From Chrysomallon squamiferum (Eukaryota; Animalia; Mollusca): a stretch of DNA of 64,000 nucleotides. The translations under genes were made by a program, and so were the position numbers. Below the pieces are notes generated by a model. It was not told the DNA's origin and ran no database searches. It was given only the letters and a program-made list of their open reading frames with translations. Below are positions 34,694-64,000 of the stretch, one piece after another; within the stretch, counting starts at the first letter, position 1, and each line of letters starts with the position of its first letter. Where the stretch lies: positions 1,550,001 to 1,614,000 of the forward strand of contig CM022667.1 in NCBI GenBank assembly GCA_012295275.1, written 5' to 3'.

Positions 34694-35400
34694 AGGAAAA
34701 TATTTATTATTATTAACGAAAAAAATTAGTTTTTATTTCTTACAATGACACCATTTCATTGGATGGAAAATTATTTTATTTTATTTTATTAAATTTTACT
34801 TAATAATTTATTTATTTATTTATTTATTGGAATTACTATACATCAGTTTCAGTCCGCACATTCAAAGAGTTCTTTTTAGGTAACAAATGTTGTTTTTTGG
34901 GTTGTTTTTTTTCGGAACTATTACTTCTTTATTTATTTAATTGTTGACACACTAATTTATACGCATACTCATATTCACTCAAAGAAAATCATAGATGAAG
35001 ATAATAATAATAATAATAATAATAAATAAACGTAATAAAAACAACAACACAAAAACAAACAAACAAACATAAATTTTAAAATAATAAAATAAATTATAAC
35101 AAAATAAAAATAAAAATAAATAAATAAATAAATAAAAATCAACAACTTTTACATCCAGGAAACCATTTTTATTATTATTATTATTTTTTTATTTCGAGAA
35201 AGGTTTGACAGTGCAGTGCAGTTTGAATTGTAACTAACTATTCTTTGAACGCCTCTTATTATCGTCATACTAAACACTGCATGTTTAACAAACACCTTTT
35301 TTCATGCTTTTCAATAAATCTTAGAGACGATAACAATCTTTAGTTCGCAAAAAAAAAAAAATATATATATATATATATATAAAGATTGTCTCTTCCATAT

Positions 35401-35414
35401 CGGAAATGACGTCA
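35401..35414 (+). promoter_or_regulatory. ETS-like + full CRE composite (CGGAAATGACGTCA) upstream of the SK array copy
   Basis: Palindromic TGACGTCA about 60 bp upstream of the ATG exon. The same motif recurs at 47053-47066 and 57597-57610, with a second TGACGTCA in each first intron. Confidence 0.45.
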
Positions 35415-35469
35415 ATACCATTAGTGGTATTTATCCAAATTTCAGCTTGAAAATAATTTCATTTTAAAA

Positions 35470-35893
35470 ATGGTAAGTTACTGTCAATACTGGATTCATT
35501 TGTTAAATCATAATAGTAGTTTGCTGTAATTATTCAGAAAGATATACATTTTGTTTAGTTATTAATTTTTAAAATACCTATAGAAAGAACAAATATACGA
35601 TCATAACGAAAACAAAATAAAAAAGTGTATATAATAAAGAGTAATGATTATTAGAGACTTTTCAAATATTATTAATTTCGAAAAATCAGCTTTTGAAACA
35701 ATTTCAGATAATTTGTGCTACTGAAAGGAAATGGTTTTATTAATTAAAATCCGGTTTTATACCTATTACCCAGCACATTTCTTGGGTCAAGAATGACGTC
35801 ATATTAACGGAAATTTGTATAATCAATACGAAATAGTCTTCCTTTTAAGAAAAAAAAAAAAAAGATCTTTCTCAGTCATAATCATGATTCAGG

Positions 35894-35937
<44 letters not shown>

Positions 35938-37284
35938 TAAATTCAGGTTCAGGCAGAACAGCAAAATGTGAATGACCCCAAAACTCCTCTTGTCAGTCAT
36001 AACGTAAAGGAATACTCCAGTATAAGCGCAAAGTCCGTTGATCTACCCCGACCTGGCAGGTCGTATGGCACCAGACTGAAGAGAAGGAAAAACCTGCTGG
36101 AACGTCGCAGAAAGATAGTCAACGTGGAATTCGCTCTGGCGATGACTGGATTAATGTTAATGCTCCTTGTGACAGAGTTGCACTTTGAGGATATATATCC
36201 AATTCATTCCGATGTCGCGTTTTACATCAAGCTGGCGATATCGATAACCACTGGGGTTTTACTGCTTGCTGTTCTGGCTTATCACATTACCGTAGTCAAA
36301 TTAAAAATGACAAACAAAAATATTTACGATTACCGGATGGTTGTTACGAAAACGTTCGTTTTTAAAGTTTCTATGGAACTCCTCGTGTGCGCCGTTCATC
36401 CGCTTCCAGGAAACATCAACGTGACGTTTGATACGATAACAGGAGAACAGGGGAGAGTTCCCGTGGACGCAGTTTTATCCATTCTCATGCTGCTGCGTTT
36501 CTACATTGTGATAAAGTTTATTATCGTTCACAGCCACTGGATGATCAACATATACATGCAGAGCGTTGGGGACCTGAACAAAGTCGACATCGACACTTGC
36601 TTTATCTTGAAGAGTCTCATAATGAACCATCCCATGCTGCTGACAGTGTCCATGATGCTAACGGTTCTGTTTATCAACACCTGGGCAATGAGGGCATGCG
36701 AATCGTACTACGTACCAGACAGCGATCAGAACGACCTTTTCAATTCAATGTGGCTCGTAACGGTGACCTTCCAACGGGGCTACGGGGATCTCTCGCCCAA
36801 CAGTTACTGCGGACGTTTCATAGCCGCGGAAACGGGTTTCATGGGACTAGGGATAACAGCACTGCTGGTGACGGTTGTGACGGCAAAATTCCAACAGACG
36901 AGATCCGAGCGCTATCTGCACGCGTTCATGGCCGAGTCTGAACTGCAGAAGAGAAAGGAAATCGCAGCTGCCGACATCATTAAGTTGGTGCTGAAGGTGT
37001 GGCTGTTGCATCGCCGTAACAAACTGACGCGTCAACTAAGTTTGCTGTATAGAATAAAACTGAACAAAACCGTGCAAAAACTGCGAGGAATTGATGACGA
37101 AATTACAAGCATCATCGAGAACAATACCGACATAATAGACGTGGGCATCAACATGATCACGGCGGGTACCGCACTGGAGAAAGTGCAGATACCAAAAGAT
37201 GATTTCAAAGAGGACGAGTTTGAAGCTCACATAAAAAGCATTAACAACCAATTAAATGCTATACAATCAAGTTTGCAACAATGA
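35470..37284 (+). CDS. SK/KCNN-like channel, array copy 1 (ATG exon 35470-35472 + 35947-37284) with altered pore TFQRGYGD
   Basis: AAAATG|GTAAGT and ATTCAG|GTTCAG give M-VQAEQQNVNDPK in frame. Near-identical to the 58277 copy except around the pore. Confidence 0.85.
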
Positions 37285-39925
37285 TGTTAAACCAGAGAAA
37301 TAAAAAAAATGGTTTATTTTCTCGTCCAAACAAATTTAAAAAAAAAGAAAAGAAAAAAAAAAGGAAGAAATAATAAATAAATAAATAATAATAATAAAAA
37401 TAATAATAATTTTATATTATTTATTTATTTATTTATTCATTTATTTATTTATTTTATTTATGCTAACAGAAGCCCTCATCTCGATATTACTGCCAATATT
37501 ACGGCAGCCACAATAGCGTATAAGTTCAGCATTGTTATTTTGGGTTATTTTTGGATACTGAACGATTGTTTCCAACGTTTTGTCAATTAAAACAGAAAGA
37601 AAATATGAAAACACATACAGTTTAATGAAAAAAACATGTATTTTGTTTTGCAATATTGAACTTAATACAAAATGTTAGTAAATGAAAGTAAGTTAAAAAC
37701 AATACCCATACGATATATGTATCTATGTATGTGACACAATAGATACAAACAAAATCTTAAAATGTCCAGTAAACTCTATTCCAAAGAAAACTCCAGTTCT
37801 AAACAAACAATACAATATTTTAGAAAAATACCACATCGAAAATTTCTAATATGTAGATAGATAAGTACATAAATCCACAGCAAATGAACAAATAGCACTA
37901 ATGTGTTAGCTTTTCAACAACACTGATCGTACTGCATTCAAGCAGATGATGCTCAAGTTGTTTTAAGAATATAGTTTCCTGTTTATGGAAAATGTAAACC
38001 TGAACATAAGAGATTCTATTCTGCCAATTAATTAAGAACAGCCATTTGTGTTGTGTGTGTATGTGTGTGTGTGTGTGTTGTCTTATTTACACTATCTACA
38101 TTTATCTCTTCTTCTTGTTGTACACTCTCTCTTTTAATATTGAATGTGCTCAGCATTCATTTATTTTCTTAATATTATTATCATTTTATCTTTATACATA
38201 TACATACTTCACACATATATTTATAATCTAGTATTCTTACAAGTGAAAAAATACACCTTTATGAATTAAAATCTGAAGATAACAAAATAATTTCCAAAAA
38301 TAACACATAGCCATTCACTGGCAGATAAACCAATAGTAGATAAAAAAACACACATCATTTTGCACAATGATTTTAAAATACCAAAGTTGGTGCTAATTTT
38401 TCAAAAAATAAAAAATCTATTACTTTTTCATTGATTTTACAGTCAGAATTATTTGTGAAATGGAATTCTCATTACTGATATGTTGCTAAAAATGATCAAC
38501 CAAATTTTAATCTGGTATTTTTAAATGCTCTTTGATTAATAAAGATAATTAAAATATATATATATATATAAAAGAAAATAACTTTAAAAACATAAATAAT
38601 GGAAGATTATTGTTATATTATTTTATTTATATCTTATCAACAACTACTATCAGTTTGACTGGCTATAATAAAAAAAAGAATTCTAAATGAACAATAAAAA
38701 AAGTAAAAATATAAAAGTTTAAAAAAAAAGGAAAAATAAAAAAGTTTAAAAAAAGGGAGTATCACGATAATGCTGAAGAGACACTTGATAATTATTACAT
38801 AACAGAGAATCAAAAAGTACTGTTAAGAAACAATGTATTTTACCTTTCAGTGTTCTCAAAACTGAAACCATGACAACATTTAAAGTTAGATATTAACAAA
38901 AACAGAAAGAAAGGAAAGAAATAAAAAGGAGAATGGGAAAAAATTAAAAGGAATATAAATAAAAAAAGAAAAAGCTGGATTGAAATAAAAGACAGGACAC
39001 AATTTTAAATATTCAAATACAAATTTTTTACAAACAAGGAACATATTTAGTACTATAAAAAATAATATGTAAAGTTAATTTCTATTCATTATCATTAATA
39101 TTCTGAAAGTCAAAAAGTCAAAAAAACAAAACAAAATAACAACAAAAAAACAACAACACAATAATAATAATAATTAAGACACTAAATGATTATCCTGAAA
39201 GATATTAATAATAACATTATTTCTCTCCAAGTTAGAAAAATGGGAGTTCTGTCCTAACTAAAAATTGAATTCCATTATATTATGCCAGCTGGGGAAATTG
39301 GGAAACCTCTCATAAAAGAATCTCGAGTTTCATTATATCAGGTTAGCTTGGAAAAGTGGAAAACCTCTCTTAGAAGAACATTGGATTTGCTTTTTATCAT
39401 TACATCTGTGTTTAATTAAATCAGTCTAGCTCAAAATAGCAGACATCTGTAAACAAATGAATCTTAACATTATACAGCTTATAAAGAAAATAGCTTTAAA
39501 AAATAAATGATAGCATAAATAATGGGAGATTATTGTTATTGTTATTTTATTTATATCTTATCAATAACTACTAACAATTTGACTGGCTATAATAAAAAAA
39601 AGGAATTCTAAATGAACAACAAAAAAAGTAAAAATAAAAGTTTAAAAAAAGGGAGTATCACAATTGTCAAGAGACACTTGATAGTTATTACATAACAGAT
39701 AATCAAAAAGTACTGTTAAGAAACAATGTATTTTACCTTTCAGTTTTCTCAAAACTGAAACCATGACAACATTTAAAGTTAGATATTGACAAAAACAGAA
39801 AAACAAAGAAGCGGAAAAAAAATAAAAATAAAAATAAAAGAAAGAAAAGAATGAAAAAGGAGAATGAAAAAAAATTAAAAGGAATATAAATAAATAAAAA
39901 AGAAAAAGCTGGATTGAAATAAAAC

Positions 39926-40478
39926 GTGGCTCAATTCAATGTGGCTCGTAGCGGTGACCTTCCTCACTGTCGGCTACGGGGATCTCTCGCCCAACAGTTA
40001 CTGCGGACGTTTCATAGCCGCGGAAACGGGTTTCATGGGAGTAGGGATAACAGCACTGCTGGTGACGGTTGTGACGGCAAAATTCCAACAGACGAGATCC
40101 GAACGCTATCTGCACGCATTCATGGCCGAGTCTGAACTGCAGAAGAGAAAGGAAATCGCAGCTGCCGACATCATTAAGTTGGTGCTGAAGGTGTGGCTGT
40201 TGCATCGCCGTAACAAACTGACGCGTCAACTAAGTTTGCTGTATAGAATAAAACTGAACAAAACCGTGCAAAAACTGCGAGGAATTGATGACGAAATTAC
40301 AAGCATCATCGAGAACAATACCGACATAATAGACGTGGGCATCAACATGATCACGGCGGGTACCGCACTGGAGAAAGTGCAGATACCAAAAGATGATTTC
40401 AAACAGGACGAGTTTGAAGCTCACATAAAAAGCATTAACAACCAATTAAATGCTATACAATCAAGTTTGCGACAATGA
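39926..40478 (+). pseudogene. 5'-truncated SK channel fragment (pore to C-terminus), part of a ~3.2-kb partial duplication
   Basis: Begins abruptly at SMWLVAVTFLTVGYGD directly after AT-rich repeat-unit sequence. No S1-S5. Downstream sequence repeats 37284 onward with an offset of 3194. Confidence 0.85.
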
Positions 40479-40568: not shown

Positions 40569-40599
<31 letters not shown>

Positions 40600-42139: not shown

Positions 42140-43469
42140 TGAAAAAGGAGAATGAAAAAAAATTAAAAGGAATATAAATAAACAAAAAAGAAAAAGCTGG
42201 ATTGAAATAAAACAAAGGAAACAATTTTAAACATTCAAATACAAATTTTTCATATTATACTCATATTAAAAAATATTTAAATAAACATTCAATGTATTTA
42301 GATGATACTTGACAAATTTTTTTCACAAACAAGGAACATTTTAGTTCTATAAAAAAAATAATATATAAAGTTAATTTCTGTACATTCATGTAGTGATATA
42401 TTCATTATTATTAATATTCTAAAAGTCAAAAAGTCAAAAAAAAAAAAAAAAAAAAAATAAAATAAAAAAAAATAATAATTAAGACACTAAATGGTTATCT
42501 TGAAAGATATTAATAATAACATTATTTCTCTCCAAGTTAGAAAAATGGGAGTTCTCTCCTAAATAAAAATTGAATTCCATTATATTATGCCAGTTGGGGA
42601 AATTGGAAAACCTCTCATAAAAGAATCTCGAGTTTCATTATATCAGGTTAGTTTGGAAAAGTGGAAAACCTCTCTTAGAAGAACATTGGATTTGCTTTTT
42701 ATCATTACATCTGTGTTTAATTAAATCAGTCTAGCTCAAAATAGCAGACATCTGTAAACAAATGAATCTTAACATTATACAGCTTAGAAAAGTGAAAGTG
42801 ATTCTACGTTTGTAGATGTAATATACATTTTAGTAAGTCTATTCAGATTTGAGTTTATGTCCAGCCTGTTTACAAGTGTCAAAGTTCTTTTACTTAATAT
42901 ACTGAAATCTGCAATGAAATTCATGGGTATAGCTATTTAAATATACAGTTCTGATCCTCTCTGTATTTGTTTAATACCTAAATCTTTTCTGACAACTGAT
43001 GACTTAAGAAGATTTTTAATTTTGTAAAAATGTATTCCATGTGAAGATGTTAAGTATTACTGTTGACATCAGAAGTAGAATTAACATTCAAGAAATGGAA
43101 ACAATTCTCAGTCCACTTAAAATTTGTTAACTTTATTAACATTGTTTTTACAAATAAAAGCATCTACTTACACTCCATAAATAAAACTTGACCACAGTTG
43201 CTTAACAATTAAATAATAAAATCACCTTCTTTTCTTTACTGACAAACAGTATGTATATAATACACATATAAAAAAAATAATCTAGTGGTCTGGCTACTTT
43301 AAAAATAAAATAAAACAACAGTGAAATGCAAACATGCATTTTCCCAATTATTTCAGTATAATAACTGGTTTGTGGAAGAGGATTAGGGACATGATATGCT
43401 GCCTTTAATGAAACTCAAGATTCTTTTTGGAGTTTTTTTTTTTACTCAAGAGAGATAATCAGATAAATC

Positions 43470-44904
43470 TCATCGGCCTACAGCATCACATGCTTCAGCA
43501 AGCTTCTGCAGTGTGACAGGATGATACTGACTTTTCCACTGTCGTAGCATTTGGTAAACCACTTCGTACTGACCGTCTGCTCTATATTGCATTTCGAAAT
43601 TGTCCAGTTGTCCTTCTGAAAGCCCCAGCTTACGACCTAACATCCTCCATTTTTTACCTATGTGAGTAGCAATGTAGCCCATTTGATCCTGTGTAGGTTC
43701 AGCTGTTGAAGCTTAAAATAACAAGAAGACAAATTTGATTGGCCAGTGAAAATAAATTTGTGCCAAACAAATAATATAAAAATATATATATATAAAAAAA
43801 ATAATGAAAGTTTTTAATTATGAATTATGTATACACACAGGAACACACACATACACACCCACACACACACACACATATAAACACACATGCATACACACAC
43901 TCATACATGCACTGAAACTGGCAAATACACAAACATGCATATAAAAGTGCATACAGATATGTATGTATGTATGTATATGTAAACACACATTAACACACAC
44001 AGTTCTGGCTTATTCTCTCCAAAACAAAGCATTAAAAGTCAATTTGGTAAAAAAAAAATATTAAGACAGCAGATGCAGCTTTATAAGATAAATGATATTC
44101 AATCACATTTACCTAATTTCAAAGACTGTGAAAGTATGAAGCACTGTAAAACAGGGGCTGACTAAACTATTACTAGTATTAATGTTACTACTACTAGTAC
44201 TACTTCTAATACTACTACTATTATTATTATTATTATTATTATTAGATCAAGTTAAACTGCTATTTGTCTGACTGAAACTCCTCTGTCTATCTTTAAGATT
44301 TGTTTAAGAAATTTGAATTACTGATGGAATAAAATTTTTTTAAAAAGATATAAATAATAATATCTTTATAACATACCACGGTCTTTAGAAGGGGTGGCAT
44401 CATCATCAAGATCCTGGAATGATACAAGAAGAAAACTTTTATAAAATTGAAAGGTAACTGTTAATTATCTGAAATTTTGCAAGAACAGACTCCAAATAGC
44501 TACATGATTTGAAAAAAAATAGTAATAATAATAAAATAAAATAAAATAAAACCAAAAATACAAATTAAACTGTTTTAAGTGAATGTATATGTATGTGTAT
44601 ACATGAAAAGAAATCCATACAAAACATGTATACTTTTTTATGTTCTTTTGTTGTCGTCTTTTTAAAACTTTTTATACATATATTTTGTTAAATGGACATA
44701 ATATCAGCATAACATATATGATATTCAAAATCTTTCTAAAACCAAATGCTCATACTTAATTTGGATATATATATATTATTATTATTATTATTATTATTAT
44801 ATTATTTTTTCTGTCTCAAGAAATACAATCTGATTAAAAATGTTTAAGCTTATTGATCATAGATACTGTTTATAAATACTTACATTATCTCTCCTGCTTG
44901 CCAT
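43470..44904 (-). CDS. IMD/RIPK1-like death-domain adaptor, copy A: lacks the RHIM exon, DD prematurely stopped (possible pseudogene)
   Basis: Exons 44884-44904 (accATGG; MASRRDN), 44377-44413 (DLDDDATPSKDR) and 43470-43711 (DD: IGKKWRMLGRKLGLSEGQLD...YQMLRQWK...LAEAC). A GGA>TGA change removes GDLSDYLS. Confidence 0.75.
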
Positions 44905-45249
44905 GGTTCCTTGTAATGTAAGACTGCCTAAAAATAGTTCTGACCAAAGATAAAAACATGAACTATGTTGAAACACAAACAACAACTACAGAGCTTTTGT
45001 GTTTCCTATCACTGACTGAGCACATTTTGGCAGTAAATGAAAAGCTATCTACCATTTATGGTCAATAATGCCTGTTGAATCAATTAGCAGTATTTTAAAT
45101 AAGAATATAAAAAAAAAAAAAGAAAGAAACAAATTAAATAAAAAAAATATAAAAAGATAAAATAAAAGATATAAAATAAAATAAAAAATTATAAATATAG
45201 ATTCTTTGAATAAACAAAAATAAAACCCTGTTACATACTATACTGTCAT

Positions 45250-45297
<48 letters not shown>

Positions 45298-45606
45298 TAT
45301 AAACTGTAAAGATGTTTTCAATTTATTTAATTAGTTCAATACACACTCATACTGTCTACAAATTCGGTTTATTTTAAGACATATTTTTATGTTTGTCTTT
45401 AGAACCATTATGAAAACTTACCAGCCAAAATGGTGGTGGGAGGATATAAAAAATCAAATACAAATAATAATAATAATAAATTAAAACAATTAAAAATATA
45501 CCACCTTCCCAACAGATAAGCATATTTATTTTTCTAAATACTTCATTATAAAAATATCTGATTTTGAATTTTTTCTGAAAAGTAATCTGTCTTTGAGAAG
45601 ATATTT

Positions 45607-45684
<78 letters not shown>

Positions 45685-46800: not shown

Positions 46801-47000
46801 NNNNNNNNNNNNNNNNNNNNNNNNNNNNNNNNNNNNNNNNNNNNNNNNNNNNNNNNNNNNNNNNNNNNNNNNNNNNNNNNNNNNNNNNNNNNNNNNNNNN
46901 NNNNNNNNNNNNNNNNNNNNNNNNNNNNNNNNNNNNNNNNNNNNNNNNNNNNNNNNNNNNNNNNNNNNNNNNNNNNNNNNNNNNNNNNNNNNNNNNNNNN
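46801..47000. other. Assembly gap (200 N) inside the tandem array
   Basis: Run of n. Confidence 1.
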
Positions 47001-47137
47001 AATAAAATAAAAATAAAAATAAATAAATAAATAAAGATTGTCTCTTCAATATCGGAAATGACGTCAATACAATTATTGTTATTTGTTTGTACTAGAAATG
47101 CATCCAATTTCAGCTTGAAAATAATTTCATTTTAAAA

Positions 47138-47512
47138 ATGGTAGGTTACTGTCAATACTGGATTCATTTGTTAAATCATAATAGCAGTTTGCAGTAATTA
47201 TTCAAAAAGATATACATTTTGTTTAGTTATTATTTTTTAAAATACCTATAGAAAGAACAAATATACAATCATAACGAAAACAAAATAAAAAAGTATATAT
47301 AAAAAAGAGTAATAATTATTATAGACTTTTGAAATATTGTTATTAATTTCGAAAAATCAGCTTTTGAAACTATTTCAAATAATTTGTGCTACTGAAAGGA
47401 AATGGTTTTATTAATTAAAATCCGGTTTTATACCTATTACCCAGCACATTTCTTGGGTCAAGAATGACGTCATATTTACGGACATTTGTATAGTCAATAC
47501 GAAATAGTCTTC

Positions 47513-47549
<37 letters not shown>

Positions 47550-47625
47550 AAAAAAGAAAAAAAAAAGGATAAAGAAGGTGTTCTATATCGATAGATCTTT
47601 CTCAGTCATAATCCTGATTCAGGAA

Positions 47626-47667
<42 letters not shown>

Positions 47668-49016
47668 TTAAATTCAGGTTCAGGCAGAACAGCAAAATGT
47701 GAATGACCCCAAAACTCCTCTTGTCAGTCATAACGTAAAGGAATACTCCAGTATAAGCGCAAAGTCCGTTGACCTACCCCGACCTGGCAGGTCGTATGGC
47801 ACCAGACTGAAGAGAAGGAAAAACCTGCTGGAACGTCGCAGAAAGATAGTCAACGTGGAATTCGCTCTGGCGATGACTGGATTAATGTTAATGCTCCTTG
47901 TGACAGAGTTGCACTTTGAGGACATATATCCAATTCATTCCGATGTCGCGTTTTACATCAAGCTGGCGATATCAATAACTACTGGGTTTTTACTGCTTGC
48001 TGTTCTGGCTTATCACATTACCGAAGTCAAATTAAAAATGACAAACAAAAATATTTACGATTACCGGATGGTTGTTACGAAAACGTTCGTTTTTAAAGTT
48101 TCTATGGAGCTCCTCGTGTGCGCCGTTCATCCGCTTCCAGGAAACATCAACGTGACGTTTGATACGATAACCGGAGAACAGGGGAGAGTTCCCGTGGACG
48201 CAGTTTTATCCATTCTCATGCTGCTGCGTTTCTACATTGTGATAAAGTTTATTATCGTTCACAGCCACTGGATGATCAACATATACATGCAGAGCGTTGG
48301 GGACCTGAACAAAGTCGACATCGACACTTGCTTTATCTTGAAGAGTCTCATGATGAACAATCCCATACTGCTGACAGTGTCCATGATGCTAACGGTTCTG
48401 TTTATCAACACCTGGGCAATGAGGGCATGCGAATCGTACTACGTACCAGACAGCGACCAGAACGGCCTTTTCAATTCAATGTGGCTCGTAGCGGTGACCT
48501 TCCTCACTGTCGGCTACGGGGATCTCGCCCAACAGTTACTGCGGACGTTTCAAAGCCGCGGAAACGGGTTTCATGGGAGTAGGGATAACAGCACTGCTGG
48601 TGACGGTTGTGACGTCAAAATTCCAACAGACGAGATCCGAACGCTATCTGCACGCATTCATGGCCGAGTCTGAACTGCAGAAGAGAAAGGAAATCGCAGC
48701 TGCCGACATCATTAAGTTGGTGCTGAAGGTGTGGCTGTTGCATCGCCGTAACAAACTGACGCGTCAACTAAGTTTGCTGTATAGAATAAAACTGAACAAA
48801 ACCGTGCAAAAACTGCGAGGAATTGATGACGAAATTACAAGCATCATCGAGAACAATACCGACATAATAGACGTGGGCATCAACATGATCACGGCGGGTA
48901 CCGCACTGGAGAAAGTGCAGATACCAAAAGATGATTTCAAAGAGGACGAGTTTGAAGCTCACATAAAAAGCATTAACAACCAATTAAATGCTATACAATC
49001 AAGTTTGCGACAATGA
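47138..49016 (+). pseudogene. SK-like channel array copy with a 2-bp deletion frameshift just after GYGD (or a sequencing error)
   Basis: ATG exon 47138-47140, main exon from 47678. Reads GATCTCGCCC at 48521 versus GATCTCTCGCCC in sister copies. The ORF splits into 47699-48673 and 48573-49016. Confidence 0.8.
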
Positions 49017-49107
49017 TGTTAAACCAGAGAGAGAGAGAGAAAAAAAAGGTTTATTTTCTCGTCCAAACAAATTTAAAAAAAAAGAAAAGAAAAAAAAAAG
49101 GAAGAAA

Positions 49108-49138
<31 letters not shown>

Positions 49139-49791: not shown

Positions 49792-49823
<32 letters not shown>

Positions 49824-50050
49824 TGTCTTATTTACACTATCTACATTTATCTCTTCTTCTTGTACACTCTCTCTTTTAATACACCTTTATGAATTAAAAT
49901 CTGAAGATAACAAAATAATTTCCAAAAATAACATAGCCATTCACTGGCAGATAACCCAATATTAGATAAAAAAACAAACAAAAAACACATCATTTTGCAC
50001 AATGATTTTAAAATAACAAAGTTGGTGCTAATTTTTCAAGAAAACAACGG

Positions 50051-50081
<31 letters not shown>

Positions 50082-51708: not shown

Positions 51709-54020
51709 TCAAGAGAGATAATCAGATAAATCTCCTTGGCCTACAGCATCACATGCTTCAGCAAGCTTCTGCAGTGTGAAACAATCAGACTGACTTTTCC
51801 ACTTTAGTAGCATTTGGTAAACCACTTCGCACCTACCCTCTGTGCGATATTCTATTTTCAAATTGTCCAGTTGTCCGTCTGAAAGCCCCAGCTCACGACC
51901 TAACTGCCCCCATTTACTACCTATGTTATCAGCAATGTATTTCATTTGATCCTGTGTAGGTTCAGCTGCTGAAGCTGAAAATAACAAGAAGACAAATTTG
52001 ATTGGCCAGTGAAAATAAATTTGTGCCAAACAAATAATATAAAAATATATATATATAAAAAAAATAATGAAAGTTTTTAATTATGAATTATGTATACACA
52101 CAGGAAGAGAGATAATCAGATAAATCTCCTCGGCCTACAGCATCACAAGCTTCAGCAAGCTTCTGCAAGGTGACAGGATGATACTGACTTTTCCACTGTC
52201 GTAGCATTTGGTAAACCACTTCGTACTGGCCCCCTATTGTATGTTGCATTTTGAAATTGTCCAGTTGTTCGTCTGAAAGCCCCAGCTTACGACCTAACTG
52301 CCTCCATTTACTACCTATGTGAGTAGCAATGTAGGCCATTTGCTCGTGTGTAGGTTCAGCTGTTGAAGCTGAAAATAACAAGAAGACAAATTTGATTGAC
52401 CAGTGGATATAAATTTGTGCCAAACATCAAATATAAAAAAAAAGTATATATATATATAAAATAATAAAAGTACTGAAATAAAATAGTTATTAATTATGAA
52501 TTACGTATACAGTCAGGAACATATATAGATACATACGTACATACACACATACATACACACGCTCATACATGCACTGAAACTGGAAAATACACAAACATAT
52601 AAAAGTGCATACAGATATGTATGTATGTACGTATAGGCAAACACACATAAAGACACAGTTCTGGCTTATTCTCTCCAGGAAAGAAAGTATTAAAAATCAG
52701 TTTGGTAAAAAAAAAAAATTAAGACAGCAGATGCAGCTTTATAAGATAAATGATATTCAATCTGAATGAACTGTGTATAAAAACACTCACTTGTAATTGG
52801 TTTTTTTCGTGCTTTCTTAGATTTCTTTTTGCCAGAACCCGTATACATTTCATTGTTGTTTCCAATCTGAATTGTAGAAGTTTCTGGGTCACCAACAAAT
52901 ACCCTTCTATAACTGCCATCAGGTCCTAAAGTAAAAACAAATATAAAGTAAACTCTAAAAATCTTGAAGTTGCAATCAGATTCAAGATAGTGTTGTATTC
53001 AAGATATTAATCATATGTAACAGAAGAAAAAATAATTACAAATAAAATCGATTGTTCGCGGTCTGATAGTCTACATTCACAATATTATTAAGAACTCCTT
53101 ATATTCAGTGAGTTCACCTAATTTCAAAGACTGTGTAAGTATGAACCACTGTAAAACAGGGATTGAGATAATTAAAAAAACCTAAGAGGAGAAAGTAAAA
53201 ATAAAAATAAAACCCATTTTTTGTGGTACGGTAATGTACATTGATATTATTATTAAAAACTTGTATTCAGTGAATGTTTATCCTTTCTTTCTTTTTTTAA
53301 ATATATTTTAAATCACATTTACCTAATTTCAAAGACTGTGTAAGTATGAACCACTGTAAAACAGGGGCTGACTAAACTATTACTACTATTAATGTTACTA
53401 CTACGAGTACTGCTTCTACTACTACTACTATTATTATTATTATTATTATTAGATCAAGTTAAATTGCTATTTTTCTGACTGAAACTCCTCTGTCTATCTT
53501 TAAGATTTGTTTAAGAAATTTGAATTACTGATGGAATAAAAAAAATTAAAAAAGATAGAAATAATAATAACTTTATAACATACCACGGTCTTCCATATAA
53601 AATGGTGGTTTCATATTTGGTCCATTAAAAGGGGTGGCATCTTCATCTAGATCCTGGAATGATACAAGAAGAAAACTTTTATAAAATTGAAAGTTAACTA
53701 TTAATTATCTGAAATTTTGCAAAGACAGACCCTAAATAGCTACATGATTTGAAAAAAATAGTAATAATAATAAAATAAAATAAAATAAAATAAAACCGAA
53801 AAGAAATATACCAAAAATACAAATTTTAAGTGAATGTATATGTATGTGTATACATGAAACGAAATCCATACAAAACATGTATACTTTTTTATGTTCTTTT
53901 GTTGTTGTCTTTTTAAAACTTTTTATACATATGTTTTGTTAAATGGACATAATATCAGCATAACAAGCATAATATTCAAAATCTTTCTAAAACCAAATGC
54001 TCATACTTAGTTTGGTTATA

Positions 54021-54058
<38 letters not shown>

Positions 54059-54160
54059 TATTTTTTCTGTCTCAAGAAATACAATCTGATTAAAAATGTA
54101 TAAGCTTATTGATCATAGATACTGTTTATAAATACTTACATTATATCTTCTGCTTGCCAT
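51709..54160 (-). CDS. IMD/RIPK1-like adaptor, copy B: caspase site/IBM + RHIM-like motif + two tandem death-domain exons
   Basis: Exons 54140-54160 (MASRRYN), 53584-53653 (DLDEDATPFNGPNMKPPFYMEDR), 52791-52925 (PDGSYRRVFVGDPETSTIQIGNNNEMYTGSGKKK...), DD1 52088-52368, DD2 51709-51974. All are GT-AG and phase-compatible. Confidence 0.82.
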
Positions 54161-54361
54161 GGTTCCTCGTAATGTAAGACTGCCTAAAAATAGTTCTGAC
54201 CAAAGATAAAAACATGAACTATGTTGAAACACAAACAACAACTACAGAGCTTTTGTGTTTCCTATCACTGACTGAGCACATTTTGGCAGTAAATGAAAAG
54301 CTATCTACCATTTATGGTCAATAATGCCTGTTGAATCAATTAGCAGTATTTTAAATAAGAA

Positions 54362-54416
<55 letters not shown>

Positions 54417-54841
54417 AAATAAAAGATATAAAATAAAATAAAAAATTATAAATATAGATTCTTTGAATAAACAAAAATAAAACCCTGTTACATACTATAC
54501 TGTCATTAAATATATATATATATATATATTTTTATAAACTGTAAAGATGTTTTCAATTTATTTAATTAGTTCAATACACACTCATACTGTCTACAAATTC
54601 GGTTTATTTTAAGACATATTTTTATGTTTGTCTTTAGAACCATTATGAAAACTTACCAGCCAAAATGGTGGAGGGAGGACATAAAAAATCAAATACAAAT
54701 AATAATAATAATAAATTAAAACAATTAAAAATATACCACCTTCCCAACAACTAAGCATATTTATTTTTCTAAATACTTCATTATAAAAATATCTGATTTT
54801 GAATTTTTTCTGAAAAGTAATCTGTCTTTGAGAAGATATTT

Positions 54842-54938
<97 letters not shown>

Positions 54939-56803
54939 GTTTTGTTGTTGTTATTTGCTTTCATGATTTTATTTCAAACATGATTATCCGAAATAAGCTT
55001 AAGATAATATAATTGTTGTAAATATTAAAAATAGTTATTTCTGATAGAATGTTATAAAAGTTTAGCTTTGTTTCATTAAGTAAATTATAAAACAGAACAG
55101 AAGAAATAAATACTTACAAATTAAAATAATAAAAATAAACATTAAAAAATCATTATGTAAATATTAAAATAGCATGACCACTTGTCCAGTTTGCTTTACT
55201 CTGATCGTGTTGTCACCTATCCTATTTTAAAAATAGTAGCGTCATTGTATAATCTATATCGTATCTCAAATTAATTAATATCTAGAAAGTGACTGCAAGC
55301 ATTTATCGTTATTAGATGAGTGAAACAATGCGAAAGTATATTTAAAAATTAAAAAACAAAAAATTAAGTTTGAAAACAGTTATATTTAAAAAAATGTATT
55401 TGAAAAACAAAAAAAAAGAATAATAAAATTTCGTGTATTGTTATCCACAAAACTTTTCCCAACTTCCTTGATTTTATGTTTCGGTTAAAAAAGAAATCAA
55501 GAAAAAAAAAACAATATTTGAAACTTCGAAAGCTCTATTCAGATCTGAGACAAATGTAATTATTTAAAATAATTATGTGAATTTAACATTGTACTTACAC
55601 GACAATTTTAGACTGTTGAATTATTATTATGATTTTTTTTTTTTAAATGCAACAACGACAACAAATATATTTAAAAATTAAAAAACAAAAAATTAAAAAA
55701 AGATTAAAAAGAAGAAGAAAAAAGAGAAAGAAATGAAAACGCGGGAAATATGATTGAGAAGATATTTTAAATCTATTTTAGGAGATTACTTTATTATTAT
55801 TATTTGATTATTATTATTATGTTGTTGTTGTAGTAGTAGTTGTTATTTCAAACATGATTAACCCAAATTGCTTAAGATAATATAATTGTTATAAAAGATT
55901 AGTTCTTTTTCATTATTAAGTAAATTATAAAACAGAACAGAACAAATAAAAATAAATACTTTAAAATTAAAATAATCAAAATAATAATCAAAAATCATTA
56001 TGTAACTAATATGACCAGTTGTCGAATTTCCCTAACGCTGATCGTGTTTTCACCTATCCTATTTTAAAAATCGCAGTTTCGTTGAATAATCGCTATAATA
56101 TATGGAAATTAATTAAAACCTAGAATGTTATTGTAAACATTTAATTATCAGTAATACATTATCAGCGAAGCAATGCCAAAGTGAAAGTAAGAAAAAATAA
56201 AATAAAATAATTATGTATGAATAACAGTTATACCTGTTTGGAGGTGAAGATCGTACAAATTATCTACGTTTTATATCTATTTTAGGAGATTACTTTATTA
56301 CGGAAGAATAACCTGGAAAATTTCGTTTATTTTTAACCACAAAAAATGTCCATACGTAGGTCCTGATAATCGAGACTACAAATATTTGACTGGTACTCAT
56401 GATTTCATTTTGCTCTGTTTACATTTGAGACGAATGTAATTATTTTGAATAATTAGGTGAATTTAACATTTGTACTTAGACGACTGTTTTAACCCTTAAT
56501 TGTTGAATTATTATTATTAAAAAGAAAAAAAAAAGAAGAGACAAATATTGATGCCTTAAAGGGATAGAAATTATTTTATTCTATCTTTCCTTTTTTTCTC
56601 TTTTTATTCCGTTAGTTTTAACGATATTTTGGAGTAACTCAAATATTATTCACGCTTATTTCTACACATTTGTGCCTGATAGACTGGATTTGCATGGATT
56701 ATTCTCAATAGACGTGCTACACTGAGAATAACAGCGATGACAAAACAACAGAAATAATAATAACAATGACAATAACAGTAACAAAATTTAGTGCATAACC
56801 ATA

Positions 56804-57684: not shown

Positions 57685-58091
57685 ATGGTAAGTTATTGTC
57701 AATACTGGATTCATTTGTTAAATCATAATAGTAGTTTGCAGTAATTATTCAGAAAGATATACATTTTGTATAGTTATTAATTTTTAAAATACCTATAAAA
57801 AGAACAAATATACGATCATAACGAAAACAAAATAAAGAAGTATATATAATAAAGAATAATAATTATTAGAGACTTTTCAAATATTAGTATTAATTTCGAA
57901 AAATCAGCTTTTGAAACAATTTCAAATAATTTGTGCTACTGAAAGGAAATGGTTTTATTAATTAAAATCCGGTTTTATACCTATTACCCAGCACATTTCT
58001 TGGGTCAAGAATGACGTCATATTTACGGAAATTTTTATATTCAACACAAAATAGTCTTCCTTTTAAGAACAAACAAACAAACAAACAAAAA

Positions 58092-58142
<51 letters not shown>

Positions 58143-59596
58143 AGGATAGAGAAAAAGGAAAGACAACAAAAACGGCAATTGTCTAAGATGGTTTTTTTTA
58201 AATAGATCTTTCTCACTCATAATCATGATTCAGGATAATAATAATTTAAATTCAGGTTCAGGCAGAACAGCAAAATGTGAATGACCCCAAAACTCCTCTT
58301 GTCAGTCATAACGTAAAGGAATACTCCAGTATAAGCGCAAAGTCCGTTGACCTACCCCGACCTGGCAGGTCGTATGGCACCAGACTGAAGAGAAGGAAAA
58401 ACCTGCTGGAACGTCGCAGAAAGATAGTCAACGTGGAATTCGCTCTGGCGATGACTGGATTAATGTTAATGCTCCTTGTGACAGAGTTGCACTTTGAGGA
58501 CATATATCCAATTCATTCCGATGTCGCGTTTTACATCAAGCTGGCGATATCAATAACCACTGGGATTTTACTGCTTGCTGTTCTGGCTTATCACATTACC
58601 GATGTCAAATTAAAAATGACAAACAAAAATATTTACGATTACCGGATGGTTGTTACGAAAACGTTCGTTTTTAAAGTTTCTATGGAGCTCCTCGTGTGCG
58701 CCGTTCATCCGCTTCCAGCAAACATCAACGTGACGTTTGATACGATAACCGGAGAACAGGGGATAGTTCCCGTGGACGCAGTTTTATCCATTCTCATGCT
58801 GCTGCGTTTCTACATTGTGATAAAGTTTATTATCGTTCACAGCCACTGGATGATCAACATATACATGCAGAGCGTTGGGGACCTGAACAAAGTCGACATC
58901 GACACTTGCTTTATCTTGAAGAGTCTCATGATGAACCATCCCATGCTGCTGACAGTGTCCATGATGCTAACGGTTTTGTTTATCAACACCTGGGCAATGA
59001 GGGCATGCGAATCGTACTACGTACCAGACAGCGATCAGAACGGCCTTTTCAATTCAATGTGGCTCGTAGCGGTGACTTTCCTCACTGTCGGCTACGGGGA
59101 TCTCTCGCCCAACAGTTACTGCGGACGTTTCATAGCCGCGGAAACGGGTTTCATGGGAGTAGGGATAACAGCACTGCTGGTGACGGTTGTGACGTCAAAA
59201 TTCCAACAGACGAGATCCGAGCGCTATCTGCACGCGTTCATGGTCGAGTCTGAACTGCAGAAGAGAAAGGAAATCGCAGCTGCCGACATCATTAAGTTGG
59301 TGCTGAAGGTGTGGCTGTTGCATCGCCGTAACAAACTGACGCGTCAACTAAGTTTGCTGTATAGAATAAAACTGAACAAAACCGTTCAAAAACTGCGAGG
59401 AATTGACGACGAAATTACAAGCATCATCGAGAACAATACCGACATAATAGACGTGGGCATCAACATGATCACGGCGGGTACCGCACTGGAGAAAGTGCAG
59501 ATACCAAAAGATGATTTCAAAGAGGACGAGTTTGAAGCTCACATAAAAAGCATTAACAACCAATTAAATGCTATACAATCAAGTTTGCGACAATGA
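57685..59596 (+). CDS. SK/KCNN-like K+ channel, intact array copy (ATG exon 57685-57687 + 58256-59596)
   Basis: Uninterrupted ORF with six TM segments, WLVAVTFLTVGYGDLSPNSYCGR and a CaM-binding-like region. Confidence 0.9.
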
Positions 59597-59690: not shown

Positions 59691-59783
<93 letters not shown>

Positions 59784-60032: not shown

Positions 60033-60125
60033 ACTTACTACAAAATGTTGGTAAATAAAAGTAACTTACTACAAAATGTTGGTAAATAAAAGTAACTTAC
60101 TACAAAATGTTGGTAAATAAAAGTA
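60033..60125. repeat. 31-bp tandem triplication specific to this array unit
   Basis: ACTTACTACAAAATGTTGGTAAATAAAAGTA x3; present once in the other units. Confidence 0.85.
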
Positions 60126-61295
60126 AGTTAAAAACAATACCTATACGATATATGTATGTATGTATGTACGTATGTATCTATGTATGTGACACAATAGATA
60201 AAACAAAATCTTAAAATGTCCAGTAAACTCTATTCCAAAGAAAACTCCAGTTCTAAACAAACAATACAATATTTTAGAAAAATACCACATCGAAAATTTC
60301 TAATATGTAGATAGATAAGTACATAAAACCACAGCAAATGAACAAATAGCACTAATGTGTTAGCTTTTCAAACACAGATCGTACTGCACTCCAGCAGACA
60401 ATGCTCGACTTGTTTTAAGAATATATTTTCCTGTTTATGGAAAATGTAAACCTCAAAATAAATGATTCTATTCTGCCAATTAATTAAGAGCAGCCGTTTG
60501 TATTGTGTGTGTATGTGTGTGTGTGTGTGTGTGTGTTGTCTTATTTACACTATCTACATTTATCTCTTCTTCTTCTTTTAATACACCTTTATGAATTAAA
60601 ATCTGAAGATAACAAAATAATTTCCAAAAATAACATAGCCATTCACTGGCAGATAACCCAATATTAGATAAAAAAACAAACAAAAAACACATCATTTTGC
60701 ACAATGATTTTAAAATAACAAAGTTGGTGCTAATTTTTCAAGAAAACAACGGAAAAAAAAAAAAAAAAAAAAAAATAAAATCTATTACTTTTTCATTGAT
60801 TTTGCAGTCAAAATTATTTGTGAAATGGAATTCTCATTAATGTTAAGTTGCTAAAAATGATCAACCAAATTTTAACCTGGTATTTTTAAAATGCTCTTTG
60901 ATCAATAAAGATAACTTAAAAAAAAAAAAATAAAATAAAATAAAATAAAATTATATATCTATAAAGAAAATAACTTTAAAAAATAAATGATGGCATAAAT
61001 AATGGGAGATTATTGTTATTGTTATTTTATTTATATCTTATCAATAACTACTAACAATTTGACTGGCTATAATAAAAAAAAAGGAATTCTAAATGAACAA
61101 CAAAAAAAGTAAAAATAAAAGTTTAAAAAAAGGGAGTATCACAATTGTCAAGAGACACTTGATAGTTATTACATAACAGATAATCAAAAAGTACTGTTAA
61201 GAAACAATGTATTTTACCTTTCAGTTTTCTCAAAACTGAAACCATGACAACATTTAAAGTTAGATATTAACAAAAACAGAAAAACAAAGAAGCGG

Positions 61296-61340
<45 letters not shown>

Positions 61341-62226
61341 TGAAAAAGGAGAATGAAAAAAAATTAAAAGGAATATAAATAAATAAAAAAGAAAAAGCTG
61401 GATTGAAATAAAACAAAGGAAACAATTTTAAACATTCAAATACAAATTTTTCATATTATGCTCATATTAAAAAATATCTAGTAAATATTTTTTATTACAT
61501 TCAATGTATTTAGATGATACTTGACTTAAATTTTCCCAGCTACATTTTTAAATTCACAAACAAGGAACATTTTTAGTTCTATAAAAAATAATATATAAAG
61601 TTAATTTCTGTACATTCATGTAGTGATATATTCATTATTATTAATATTCTAAAAGTCAAAAAAAAAAAAAAAAAAAAAATAATAAAAAAATAATAATAAT
61701 TAAGACACTAAATGGTTATCTTGAAAGATATTAATAATAACATTATTTCTCTCCAAGTTAGAAAAATGGGAGTTCTCTCCTAAATAAAAATTGAATTCCA
61801 TTATATTATGCCAGTTGGGGAAATTGGAAAACCTCTCATAAAAGAATCTCGAGTTTCATTATATCAGGTTAGTTTGGAAAAGTGGAAAACCTCTCTTAGA
61901 AGAACATTGGATTTGCTTTTTATCATTACATCTGTGTTTAATTCAATCAGTCTAGCTCAAAATATCAGACATCTGTAAACAAATGAATCTTAATATTATA
62001 CAGCTTAGAAAAGTGAAAGTGATTCTACGTTTGTAGATGTAATATACATTTTAGTAAGTCTATTCAGATTTGAGTTTATGTCCAGCCTGTTTACAATAAA
62101 ACAACAGTGAAATGCAAACATGCATTTTCCCAATTATTTCAGTATAATAACTGGTTTGTGGAAGAGGATTAGGGACATGATATGCTGCCTTTAATGAAAC
62201 TCAAGATTCTTTTTGGAGTTTTTTAC

Positions 62227-63558
62227 TCAAGAGAGATAATCTGATAAATCTCCTCGGCCTACAGCATCACAAGCTTCAGCAAGCTTCTGCAATGTGACAG
62301 GATGATACTGACTTTTCCACTGTCGTAGCATTTGGTAAACCACTTCACCTAACTGACCCTCTGCTATATATTGCATTTTGAAATTGTCCAGTTGTCCTTC
62401 TGAAAGCCTCAGCTTACGACCTAACTTCCTCCATAGAACTCCTATGTTATCAGCAATGTAGTCCATTTGATCCTGTGTAGGTTCATCTGTTGAAGCTTAA
62501 AATAACAAGAAGACAAATTTGATTGGCCAGTGAAAATAAATTTGTGCCAAACAAATAATATAAAAATATATATATATAAAAAAAATAATGAAAGTTTTTA
62601 ATTATGAATTATGTATACACACAGGAACACACACACACACACACACACACATATAAACACACATGCATACACACACTCATACATGCACTGAAACTGGAAA
62701 ATACACAAACATACATATGAAAGTGCATGTATGTATGTATGTATATGTAAACACACATAAACACACACAGTTCTGGCTTATTCTCTCCAGGAAGCAAAGT
62801 ATTAAAAATCAATTTGGTTAAAAAATATTAAGACAGTGCATGCAGCTTTATAAGATAAATGATATTCAATCTGAATGAACTGTGTATAAAAACACTCACT
62901 TGTAATTGGTTTTTTTCGTGGTATCTTAGATTTCTTTTTGCCAGAACCTGCATACATTACATTGTTGTTTCCAATCTGAATTGTAGAAGTTTCTGGGTCA
63001 CCAACCAATACCCTTCTATAACTGCCATCAGGTCCTAAAGTAAAAACAAATATAAAGTAAACTCTAAAAATCTTGAAGTTGCAATCCGATTCAAGATAGT
63101 GTTGTATTCAAGATATTAATCATATGTAACAGAAGAAAAAAGAATTACAAATAAACAATTGTTTGTGGTGTGATGATCTACATTCACAATATTATTAAGA
63201 ACTCCTTATATTCAGTGAGTTCACCTAATTTCAAAGACTGTGTAAGTATGAACCACTGTAAAACAGGGATTGACTAAACTATTACTAGTATTAATGTTAC
63301 TACTACGAGTACTACTTCTAATACTACTACTATTATTATTATTATTATTAATATTAGATCAAGTTAAACTGCTATTTGTCTGACTGAAACTCCTCTGTCT
63401 ATCTTTAAGATTTGTTTAAGAAATTTGAATTACTGATGGAATAAAAAAATTTAAAAAAGATATAAATAATAATATCTTTATAACATACGACAGTCTTCCA
63501 TGATAAATGGTGATTTCATATATGGTCCATTAGAAGGGGTGGCATCTTCATCTAGATC
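62227..63558 (-). CDS. IMD/RIPK1-like adaptor, copy C (start exon lies beyond the window)
   Basis: Exons 63489-63558 (DLDEDATPSNGPYMKSPFIMEDC), 62900-63034 (…TSTIQIGNNNVMYAGSG…) and 62227-62495 (DD with a 1-aa insertion, EGQLGEVV). Confidence 0.82.
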
Positions 63559-64000
63559 CTGGAATGATACAAGAAGAAAACTTTTATAAAATTGAAAGTT
63601 AACTGTTAATTATCTGAAATTTTGCAAGAACAGACCCCAAATAGCTACATGATTTGAAAAAAAATAGTAATAATAATAAAATAAAATAAAATAAAACCAA
63701 AAATACAAATTAAACTATGTTTTAAGTGAATGTATATGTATGTGTATACATGAAAAGAAATCCATACAAAACATGTATACTTTTTTATGTTCTTTTGTTG
63801 TCATCTTTTTAAAACTTTTTATACATATATTTTGTTAAATGGACATAATATCAGCATCACATATATGATATTCAAAATCTTTCTAAAACCAAATGCCCAT
63901 ACTTAATTTGGATATATATATATTATTATTATTATTATTATTATTATATTATTTTTTCTGTCTCAAGAAATACAATCTGATTAAAAATGTATAAGCTTAT

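What the first reader, a model, noticed from the sequence alone, without database searches (positions are those of the whole stretch)
35000..64000. Tandemly amplified two-gene module: SK-like K+ channel + RHIM/death-domain immune adaptor
Seen: each repeat unit carries one compact SK-like channel (+) and one small spliced death-domain gene (-). The adaptor is tail-to-tail with the preceding channel and head-to-head with the next, across ~2-3 kb of shared upstream DNA. Known: RHIM + DD adaptors (RIPK1, IMD) drive NF-kB and cell-death signalling, and K+ efflux accompanies inflammasome and cell-death responses in vertebrates. Inference: this may be a copy-number-variable immune/cell-death cassette coupling an adaptor with a channel. 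Alternatively the channel may simply hitchhike on selection for adaptor copies.
Basis: partly seen in the sequence, partly recalled or inferred. Interest (0 to 1): 0.85.

Follow-up and report, generated by a model that had tools for sequence, protein, structure and literature searches.

The report
Snail Imd-like adaptor copies, passenger channel
A snail genome holds a real tandem repeat of a ~10.5 kb block with a potassium-channel gene and a small Imd-like immune signalling gene; the immune gene's death domains have diverged far more than the surrounding DNA, which likely means selection acts on the immune gene while the channel is likely carried along as a neighbour rather than as a partner.

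Summary
The array is real but less regular than reported. It has four SK-like channel copies and three death-domain (DD) genes with four DD exons. As assembled, one SK copy is intact, two adaptors keep the RHIM exon, and the first unit has lost its adaptor.

Public short-read contigs from two studies show copy-specific letters and depth that rises with assembled copy number. One run holds a unit-specific junction. RNA contigs show the RHIM-to-DD splice.

The adaptor is kinase-less and Imd-like (LDED|ATP site, IQIG RHIM, RIPK1-like DD), with homologues across molluscs. The channel is a lineage-specific paralogue of a compact molluscan SK clade.

DD exons differ by 8-14% while unit spacers differ by 2.5-5.5%. 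The changes spare the DD core, and a site model favours positive selection, though gene conversion confounds it. SK copies differ by under 2%.

The two gene types share a chromosome or contig in 6 of 11 other assemblies, but lie 33 loci apart in Pomacea. Nothing ties channel to adaptor functionally. Best reading: a diversifying Imd-like adaptor array with a hitchhiking channel. This scan had not noted this pair elsewhere; it noted an Imd-like adaptor in oysters.

The parts
33009..34693 (+). SK1: older SK-like paralogue next to the array, outside the repeat unit; predicted ATG micro-exon 33009-33011, main exon 33392-34693; open frame, 56% aa identity to SK5
35470..37284 (+). SK2: unit copy; predicted ATG micro-exon 35470-35472, main exon 35947-37284; open frame but selectivity filter damaged as assembled (3-nt loss plus 5 substitutions); no adaptor follows it
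39465..39930 (.). Rearrangement between units 1 and 2: a 461-nt piece 98.7% like 50247-50706, then 5 inserted bases, joined to the middle of SK3
   Evidence: the same junction is in DNA run X1 (table 5c)
39931..40478 (+). SK3: 5'-truncated remnant (pore to C-terminus), no start
43446..44904 (-). Adaptor A: exons 44884-44904, 44377-44413 (internally shortened; donor read from the motif position), 43446-43711; no RHIM exon; TGA at 43470-43472, 7 codons early
46801..47000 (.). Assembly gap (200 N) inside the first head-to-head interval
47138..49016 (+). SK4: unit copy; predicted ATG micro-exon 47138-47140, main exon 47678-49016; 2-nt frameshift near 48522 as assembled, not seen in the contigs of the 3 runs that cover it
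51709..51974 (-). Adaptor B distal DD exon (most divergent DD)
   Evidence: Pfam Death 47.6 bits; exact DNA contig in X1, RNA piece with 1 difference in X8
52088..52368 (-). Adaptor B proximal DD exon (second, duplicated last exon)
   Evidence: Pfam Death 52.6 bits
52791..52925 (-). Adaptor B RHIM exon (IQIG tetrad)
   Evidence: Pfam RHIM 17.1 bits, cut-off 20; splice 52791 to 51974 in RNA runs X8 and X9
53584..54160 (-). Adaptor B exons 1 (54140-54160) and 2 (53584-53653); exon 2 carries LDED|ATPF, a predicted caspase site followed by an IAP-binding-type motif
   Evidence: motif compared with PMC6626034 passages and homologues
57685..59596 (+). SK5: the intact unit channel; predicted ATG micro-exon 57685-57687, main exon 58256-59596; TVGYG filter
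62227..63558 (-). Adaptor C: exons 63489-63558, 62900-63034 (RHIM), 62227-62495 (DD); open frame; exon 1 lies beyond the window
   Evidence: RHIM 19.5 bits, cut-off 20
8953..10299 (-). SK0: a third, older SK-like paralogue of the same lineage-specific clade, 23 kb from the array

Best explanation
A ~10.5 kb block holding two neighbouring genes, a derived SK-like potassium channel and a kinase-less Imd-like adaptor, is repeated in tandem, and selection likely acts on the adaptor's death domain while the channel is likely a passenger. Shown: the array, the gene structures, RNA splicing of the RHIM exon to a DD exon, and excess divergence confined to the DD exons that spares their core. Inferred history: recent amplification to at least four units by unequal crossing-over, then a deletion, exon loss, an internal DD-exon duplication and gene conversion (birth-and-death evolution). 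Inferred function, by analogy with arthropod Imd: the RHIM would seed an amyloid with an upstream RHIM-bearing sensor. The DD would recruit a FADD-like protein and a caspase-8/Dredd-like caspase. Cleavage after Asp12 (LDED|ATP) would expose an IAP-binding N-terminus, leading to ubiquitination and NF-kB activation. The four DD variants would differ in partner binding or in escape from microbial inhibitors, and RHIM-less copy A would be a decoy or a decaying copy. SK5 would be an ordinary K+-selective channel whose Ca2+/calmodulin gating is untested.
For: Real copies: in run X1, contig depth divided by the window's 31-mer multiplicity is 98-140 in 7 of 7 pieces tested (raw depth 134-359); in X2 it is 5.4-13.8 in 6 of 6 (raw 10.5-36.8). 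All 32 contig variants checked match another copy in the window (10, 22). The SK3 junction is in X1. Adaptor: 43% identity over 162 aa to Gigantopelta XP_041376100 and 39% to Haliotis 'protein immune deficiency-like'; best solved match is the RIPK1 DD, E 1e-9; no kinase hit in the window from 6 of 6 kinase-DD queries. Divergence: DD exons differ by 8.0-13.7%; unit spacers and introns by 2.5-5.5% (6 comparisons). A against C differ at 22 of 263 exon bases and 0 of 235 flanking bases. M2a against M1a p = 3e-4, about 12% of codons at omega near 12. Variable residues hit 0 of 11 family-conserved columns against 31 of 66 others, p = 0.002. Channel: copies differ by 0.5-2.0%, and 3 of 4 are damaged as assembled. 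Pomacea loci are C0Q70_19639 and C0Q70_19672.
Against: Overall DD omega is 1.51 and not significantly above 1 (p = 0.29). All three conflicting splits occur among informative sites, so gene conversion or homoplasy could inflate the site test, which rests on four sequences and 86 codons. The B proximal exon is no more divergent than its own intron (8-14% against 13-14%). Adaptors decay too: one lost, one RHIM-less. SK copies show omega 0.28-0.37, below 1 (p about 0.01), so they are not freely decaying. The SK4 frameshift is absent from the contigs of all 3 runs that cover it, and the SK2 lesion was not checked, so more SK copies may be intact. An unnamed relative has two SK genes of this clade and the DD gene on contigs of identical length (1,173,236), so the neighbourhood may be old. 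The DD tree does not resolve orthology with arthropod Imd. No single-copy control outside the array was laid, and X1 may be the assembly's source.
Confidence: 0.6

Rival explanations
1. Neutral tandem duplication: the copies are redundant, constraint on the DD surface is relaxed, and gene conversion from an older DD exon creates the look of positive selection.
For: M0 omega 1.51 is not above 1. Conflicting informative sites. The B proximal exon and its intron are equally divergent. Both gene types show broken copies.
Against: A against B-distal has about 31 replacement and 2 silent changes (Fisher p = 0.02) while its long 3' flank differs at 9 of 723 bases. Conversion would carry silent changes along. 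The DD core is spared.
Confidence: 0.2
2. Functional cassette: channel and adaptor are co-regulated from the shared head-to-head interval and co-amplified because K+ efflux works with adaptor signalling.
For: Divergent arrangement with starts 2.2-3.5 kb apart. Same chromosome or contig in 6 of 11 other assemblies. Run X9 has contigs over both an SK5-type channel and spliced adaptor. SK omega is about 0.3.
Against: Units lose the two genes independently. The genes are not adjacent in Pomacea and lie on different chromosomes in Pinctada and Mercenaria for the proteins listed. Chromosome-level linkage is ordinary molluscan macrosynteny (own knowledge). The SK contig in X9 shows no splice and may be DNA. 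None of the titles and abstract starts listed describes such a pair.
Confidence: 0.1
3. The channel drives the amplification (dosage or new channel properties) and the adaptor is the passenger.
For: This SK clade had already duplicated locally (SK0, SK1). There are four SK copies and three adaptors. SK omega is below 1. SK expansion is reported in oysters (bioRxiv 10.1101/2021.03.18.435778, one passage).
Against: Three of four unit SK copies are damaged as assembled, and excess divergence is on the DD exon.
Confidence: 0.07
4. Assembly artefact: uncollapsed haplotigs or a mis-join of one unit.
For: A 200-N gap lies between adaptor A and SK4. No contig spans a whole unit. Contigs follow SK5 letters at all 10 listed SK sites.
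Against: Four DD exons and four SK versions exceed two alleles. Depth scales with assembled multiplicity in runs of two studies, and a unit-specific junction is in X1.
Confidence: 0.03

Closest known systems
Arthropod Imd (Drosophila Imd; Tenebrio TmIMD, PMC6626034)
   Same: Small kinase-less adaptor; N-terminal caspase site ending D|A followed by an IAP-binding-type motif (LEKD/A and LTTD/A in print; LDED|A here); central RHIM-type motif; C-terminal DD.
   Different: 163-168 aa against the 240-280 aa given for insect Imd. It has a canonical IQIG RHIM rather than a cryptic one. Three genes and four DD exons sit in a tandem array. Orthology is unresolved by the DD tree.
Molluscan Imd-like/RIPK1-like small proteins (Gigantopelta XP_041376100, Haliotis XP_046375274, Pinctada KAK3091125, Pomacea PVD21498)
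   Same: Same layout and 36-43% identity for the three aligned to the B model; the D|A site and RHIM-like motif line up in most.
   Different: Known here only as database annotations; PMC9835746 (2023, passages) states the Imd adaptor had not been found in molluscs. Copy number in those species was not measured.
RIPK1 (vertebrate; zebra mussel RIPK1, PMC12119088)
   Same: RHIM tetrad plus DD; best PDB match of the DD. The paper reports that kinase-less C-terminal RIPK1 fragments, including zebra mussel's, need the RHIM for maximal NF-kB activation (passages).
   Different: No kinase domain in the gene or in the window.
SK/KCNN (KCa2.x, KCa3.1) channels; compact molluscan SK-like clade
   Same: Pfam SK_channel, TVGYG filter, top sequence and fold matches are SK2 and SK4 structures.
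   Different: Coding region in one large exon plus a predicted start micro-exon; a long-branch paralogue shared with Gigantopelta XP_041377082 and an unnamed relative; no Pfam CaMBD hit.

Membership tests
Imd adaptor | Small, kinase-less protein with one C-terminal death domain | tested here: met
   Models of 163 and 168 aa, Pfam Death above cut-off, no kinase hit in the window
Imd adaptor | N-terminal caspase site D|A exposing an IAP-binding motif | tested here: met
   Sequence only: LDED|ATPF (B), LDED|ATPS (C), LDDD|ATPS (A); conserved D and A described in PMC6626034. Cleavage itself untested; the four-residue IBM consensus is recalled.
Imd adaptor | RHIM or cryptic RHIM | tested here: met
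   IQIG tetrad in B and C fits V/I-Q-V/I-G (PMC12119088); Pfam RHIM 17.1 and 19.5 bits, just under the cut-off of 20. Absent from A.
Imd adaptor | Orthology with arthropod Imd | tested here: inconclusive
   88-column DD tree, 24 of 35 inner branches open; the nine proteins with insect-type Imd motifs form their own group and the rest is unresolved
Imd adaptor | Acts downstream of PGRP receptors, binds FADD, activates Relish | not testable with these tools
   Needs experiments
RIPK1 | N-terminal kinase domain | tested here: not met
   tblastn of 6 kinase-DD proteins hits only the DD exons; sequence beyond base 64000 not seen
SK/KCNN channel | SK-type S1-S3 region and six-helix fold | tested here: met
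   Pfam SK_channel 97-109 bits against a cut-off of 31.8; the 20 best Foldseek hits are SK2/SK4-type structures
SK/KCNN channel | K+ selectivity filter T-x-G-Y-G | tested here: met
   TVGYG in SK0, SK1, SK3, SK4 and SK5; damaged in SK2 as assembled
SK/KCNN channel | Calmodulin-binding HA/HB helices and S45A helix | tested here: inconclusive
   Aligned to SK2 and predicted helical (202-210, 320-357, 363-414), but no Pfam CaMBD hit at E 0.1 and several substitutions
SK/KCNN channel | Ca2+/calmodulin-gated K+ current | not testable with these tools
   Needs electrophysiology
Co-selected two-gene cassette | Both genes intact in each unit | tested here: not met
   Only unit SK5 + C has both open as assembled; lesions differ per unit; the SK4 lesion may be an assembly error
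Co-selected two-gene cassette | Adjacency conserved in relatives | tested here: inconclusive
   Same-length contig or chromosome in 6 of 11 assemblies, 33 loci apart in Pomacea; no distances available for the closest relatives
Co-selected two-gene cassette | Co-expression or physical coupling | not tested
   RNA contigs cannot give levels; no complex prediction was run

The most novel reading that the evidence does not exclude
A snail lineage has built a copy-number-variable immune cassette in which a derived SK channel and Imd-like adaptors with diversified, alternatively spliced death domains are driven from a shared head-to-head promoter, coupling K+ efflux to RHIM-amyloid NF-kB or cell-death signalling, with a RHIM-less copy as built-in brake.
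Probability: 0.1. Interest if true: 0.8.

Novelty: new variant of a known kind. Interest (0 to 1): 0.42.

Why it matters
Imd was reported as missing from molluscs (PMC9835746, passages). Yet this locus and its database homologues carry all three Imd hallmarks in sequence, with a canonical RHIM. Signalling adaptors are usually single-copy and conserved (own knowledge). A tandem set whose death-domain residues diverge outside the core suggests an arms race or new partner specificity at the adaptor step. It also gives four natural variants for a direct binding test. The channel link would matter more if true, but nothing here supports it beyond proximity.

Tried and rejected
No whole genome was held, so the array's extent past base 64000 and genome-wide copy number are unknown. 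The word-indexed homologue search with the DD found nothing; the profile search did. The alignment-based search added only heterobranch proteins. The first SK tree had SK1 out of frame by my coordinate slip and was replaced (26 rows). The first exon models used wrong boundaries and were replaced, where exon 2 of A was still entered 3 nt too long; its donor was read from the motif position. RNA run X8 has no contig over the SK coding region while it has the adaptor splice; absence in contigs is not evidence and was not used. Depth test rows left out: 1 of 8 listed X1 pieces and 2 of 8 X2 pieces, which carried 5-14 other letters. Accession-number distance in RefSeq was rejected as a measure of gene distance; only GenBank locus tags of Pomacea were used. 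TGACGTCA sites near the SK starts are copies of the same sites and were given no weight. A simple NF-kB pattern found no site in the head-to-head intervals. No complex prediction was sent, because neighbourhood was the only reason for it. Literature searches listed no paper on an SK-Imd pair or a tandem molluscan Imd array; subscription journals are mostly outside that library. Two vent-snail genome papers (PMC7736800, PMC7142155) have no main-text hit for IMD, death domain, potassium channel or RIPK; their supplements were not read and may list such expansions.
Full report
Setting. The window is AT-rich animal DNA with one 200-N gap. No whole genome was held. The closest named proteins to both genes are from the gastropod Gigantopelta aegis: 55% for the channel and 43% for the adaptor. 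I infer a related gastropod; the species was not determined.

Anatomy. Self-comparison shows long direct repeats from about 35.0 kb to the window's end; SK4 to SK5 is 10.6 kb. The order is SK1, SK2, SK3 remnant, adaptor A, gap, SK4, adaptor B, SK5, adaptor C. SK1 is an older paralogue outside the unit. SK2 has a damaged filter as assembled. SK3 lacks its 5' half. SK4 has a 2-nt frameshift. SK5 is intact. Each full SK gene has a predicted ATG micro-exon and one large exon. Adaptor B has three exons followed by two alternative DD exons, giving models of 163 and 168 aa with GT-AG introns. C matches it with one DD exon, and its exon 1 lies past base 64000. A has a shortened exon 2, no RHIM exon and a stop 7 codons early. 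After SK2 only the far 3' flank of an adaptor remains before a rearranged junction into SK3. So 'one channel plus one RHIM-DD gene per unit' describes the ancestral unit, not the present ones.

Is the array real? Nine of 11 listed runs, from three studies, hold the stretch. Four runs were laid on 44001-55300, all as contigs. The tool warns that contig depth is no copy number, so I used only ratios inside the array. Depth divided by the window's own 31-mer multiplicity was 98-140 in 7 of 7 X1 pieces tested, while raw depth ran from 134 to 359. In X2 it was 5.4-13.8 in 6 of 6 pieces, raw 10.5-36.8, which is noisier. One collapsed unit would give flat raw depth. All 32 variant letters checked belong to another copy in the window, and the SK3 junction with its five inserted bases is in X1. 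Caveats: X1 may be the assembly's source, no single-copy control was laid, no contig spans a unit, and the contigs follow SK5 at all 10 listed SK sites. The SK4 frameshift is absent from the contigs of X1, X2 and X9. It is either an assembly error or a variant the contigs dropped.

Expression. RNA runs X8 and X9 both carry a junction from 52791 to 51974 with CT..AC ends, absent from the DNA runs. That is the predicted RHIM-to-DD splice. X8 holds a piece one base from the B distal exon. It also holds a RHIM-exon junction to a DD exon that differs from copy C at two adjacent bases, so at least two DD types are likely transcribed, and one is an allele or copy not in the window. X9 has a 1214-nt unspliced SK contig whose 15 differences and 2-nt gap against SK4 fit SK5; DNA cannot be excluded.

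The adaptor. The DD passes Pfam and is closest to the RIPK1 DD among solved structures (E 1e-9). The RHIM exon has IQIG, the tetrad defined in PMC12119088 (passages), and scores just under Pfam's cut-off. Exon 2 reads LDED|ATP. Insect Imd proteins conserve D and A at their Dredd cleavage site, which exposes an IAP-binding motif (PMC6626034, passages; pathway in PMC9496462, passages). A profile search of 1.84 billion representatives gave 706 hits at E up to 0.001. The listed hits include molluscan proteins of the same layout, named 'protein immune deficiency-like' in Haliotis and 'RIPK1-like' in Gigantopelta, Mercenaria and Pomacea, and proteins with the beetle-type LTTDA motif. No kinase exon lies in the window (a check prompted by earlier finding e1-9931826). 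The DD tree cannot settle orthology. It is built like Imd and likely works like it; membership as an orthologue is open. PMC9835746 (passages) states Imd had not been found in molluscs. PMC9334734 (passages) found no RIPK in Aplysia. An earlier, unreviewed note reports a RHIM-bearing NLR-like gene elsewhere in this genome (e1-10417047), a possible upstream partner that I did not test.

The channel. SK0, SK1, SK2 and SK5 form one clade (SH-aLRT 100) with Gigantopelta XP_041377082 and two unnamed ENA proteins. That clade is nested in a compact molluscan SK-like group apart from the group holding the vertebrate SK proteins (quick tree, 26 rows). SK5 keeps 84 of 93 columns conserved in at least 85% of homologues. 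Its model (pLDDT 84) best matches SK2/SK4 structures. The calmodulin-binding region aligns and is helical, but Pfam CaMBD is not hit, so gating is open.

Where selection falls. SK exons differ by 0.5-2.0%; the three full copies have dS near 0.03 and omega 0.28-0.37. Non-coding parts of the units differ by 2.5-5.5%. DD exons differ by 8.0-13.7%. For the three pairs among A, B-distal and C, the exon far exceeds its immediate flanks: 34 of 263 against 7 of 239, 22 of 263 against 0 of 235, and 35 of 263 against 7 of 236. For the three pairs with B-proximal it does not, since that exon's intron is equally divergent. My codon models (four sequences, 86 codons, fixed tree) gave omega 1.51 overall, not significantly above 1, and M2a over M1a at p = 3e-4. 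The 32 variable residues avoid family-conserved columns (0 of 11 against 31 of 66, p = 0.002), which argues against plain decay. Conflicting informative sites point to conversion or homoplasy, which can inflate the site test. Diversifying selection on the DD is therefore likely, not shown.

Linkage elsewhere. Judged by equal contig lengths in the listings, an SK-like and an Imd-like gene share a contig or chromosome in 6 of 11 assemblies: an unnamed ENA relative (1.17 Mb contig), Gigantopelta, three Haliotis species and Pomacea. They do not in Pinctada, Mercenaria, Nucella, Plakobranchus or Elysia marginata; the last three are fragmented, and only the listed SK proteins were compared. In Pomacea the two are 33 locus tags apart. 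This fits old chromosome-level linkage that became adjacency in this lineage. It neither shows nor excludes a conserved pair in the closest relatives.

Verdict. The best reading (0.6) is birth-and-death amplification of an Imd-like adaptor with diversifying death domains, with the channel carried along. Rivals are neutral duplication with conversion (0.2), a functional cassette (0.1), channel-driven amplification (0.07) and artefact (0.03). Ten literature searches (listings only unless named above) showed no report of this pair or of a tandem molluscan Imd array; supplements were not read. Novelty: new variant of a known kind. Interest 0.42.

Noticed in passing
window 8953-10299 (-): SK0, an intact older SK-like paralogue. 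Its closest relative in the tree (P0093) is on a contig of the same length as the relative's unit-type SK and Imd-like DD, so a local SK cluster predates this array.
   Followed up: partly
window 39926-39945: The five bases inserted at the SK3 truncation junction repeat sequence a few bases downstream, as in templated-insertion repair junctions (mechanism recalled, not tested).
   Followed up: partly
window 35407, 35794, 47059, 47465, 57603, 58012: Two TGACGTCA (CRE-type) sites per unit, one just upstream of the SK start micro-exon and one in its intron; copies of the same sites, function untested.
   Followed up: no
window 22450-26650 (-): Spliced papain-family protease gene (Pfam Peptidase_C1); it resembles cathepsin Z (label recalled).
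   Followed up: no
window 28200-30011 (-): Spliced trypsin-family serine protease gene.
   Followed up: no
window 12577-17435 (+): Exons of a predicted membrane protein with a CUB domain, a lectin-like exon (recalled, no Pfam hit) and a tail with a PPTY motif.
   Followed up: no
window 31159-32146 (-) and 3201-3692 (-): Exons that by recall resemble the C-terminal extension of molluscan alpha-amylase and neuroguidin; no Pfam hit.
   Followed up: no
P0179, P0151, P0111: Molluscan and unnamed Imd-like proteins share an N-terminal acidic D|A site (for example LDEDA, LEEDA, VEDA) and a canonical RHIM, a family that the papers read here do not describe for molluscs.
   Followed up: partly
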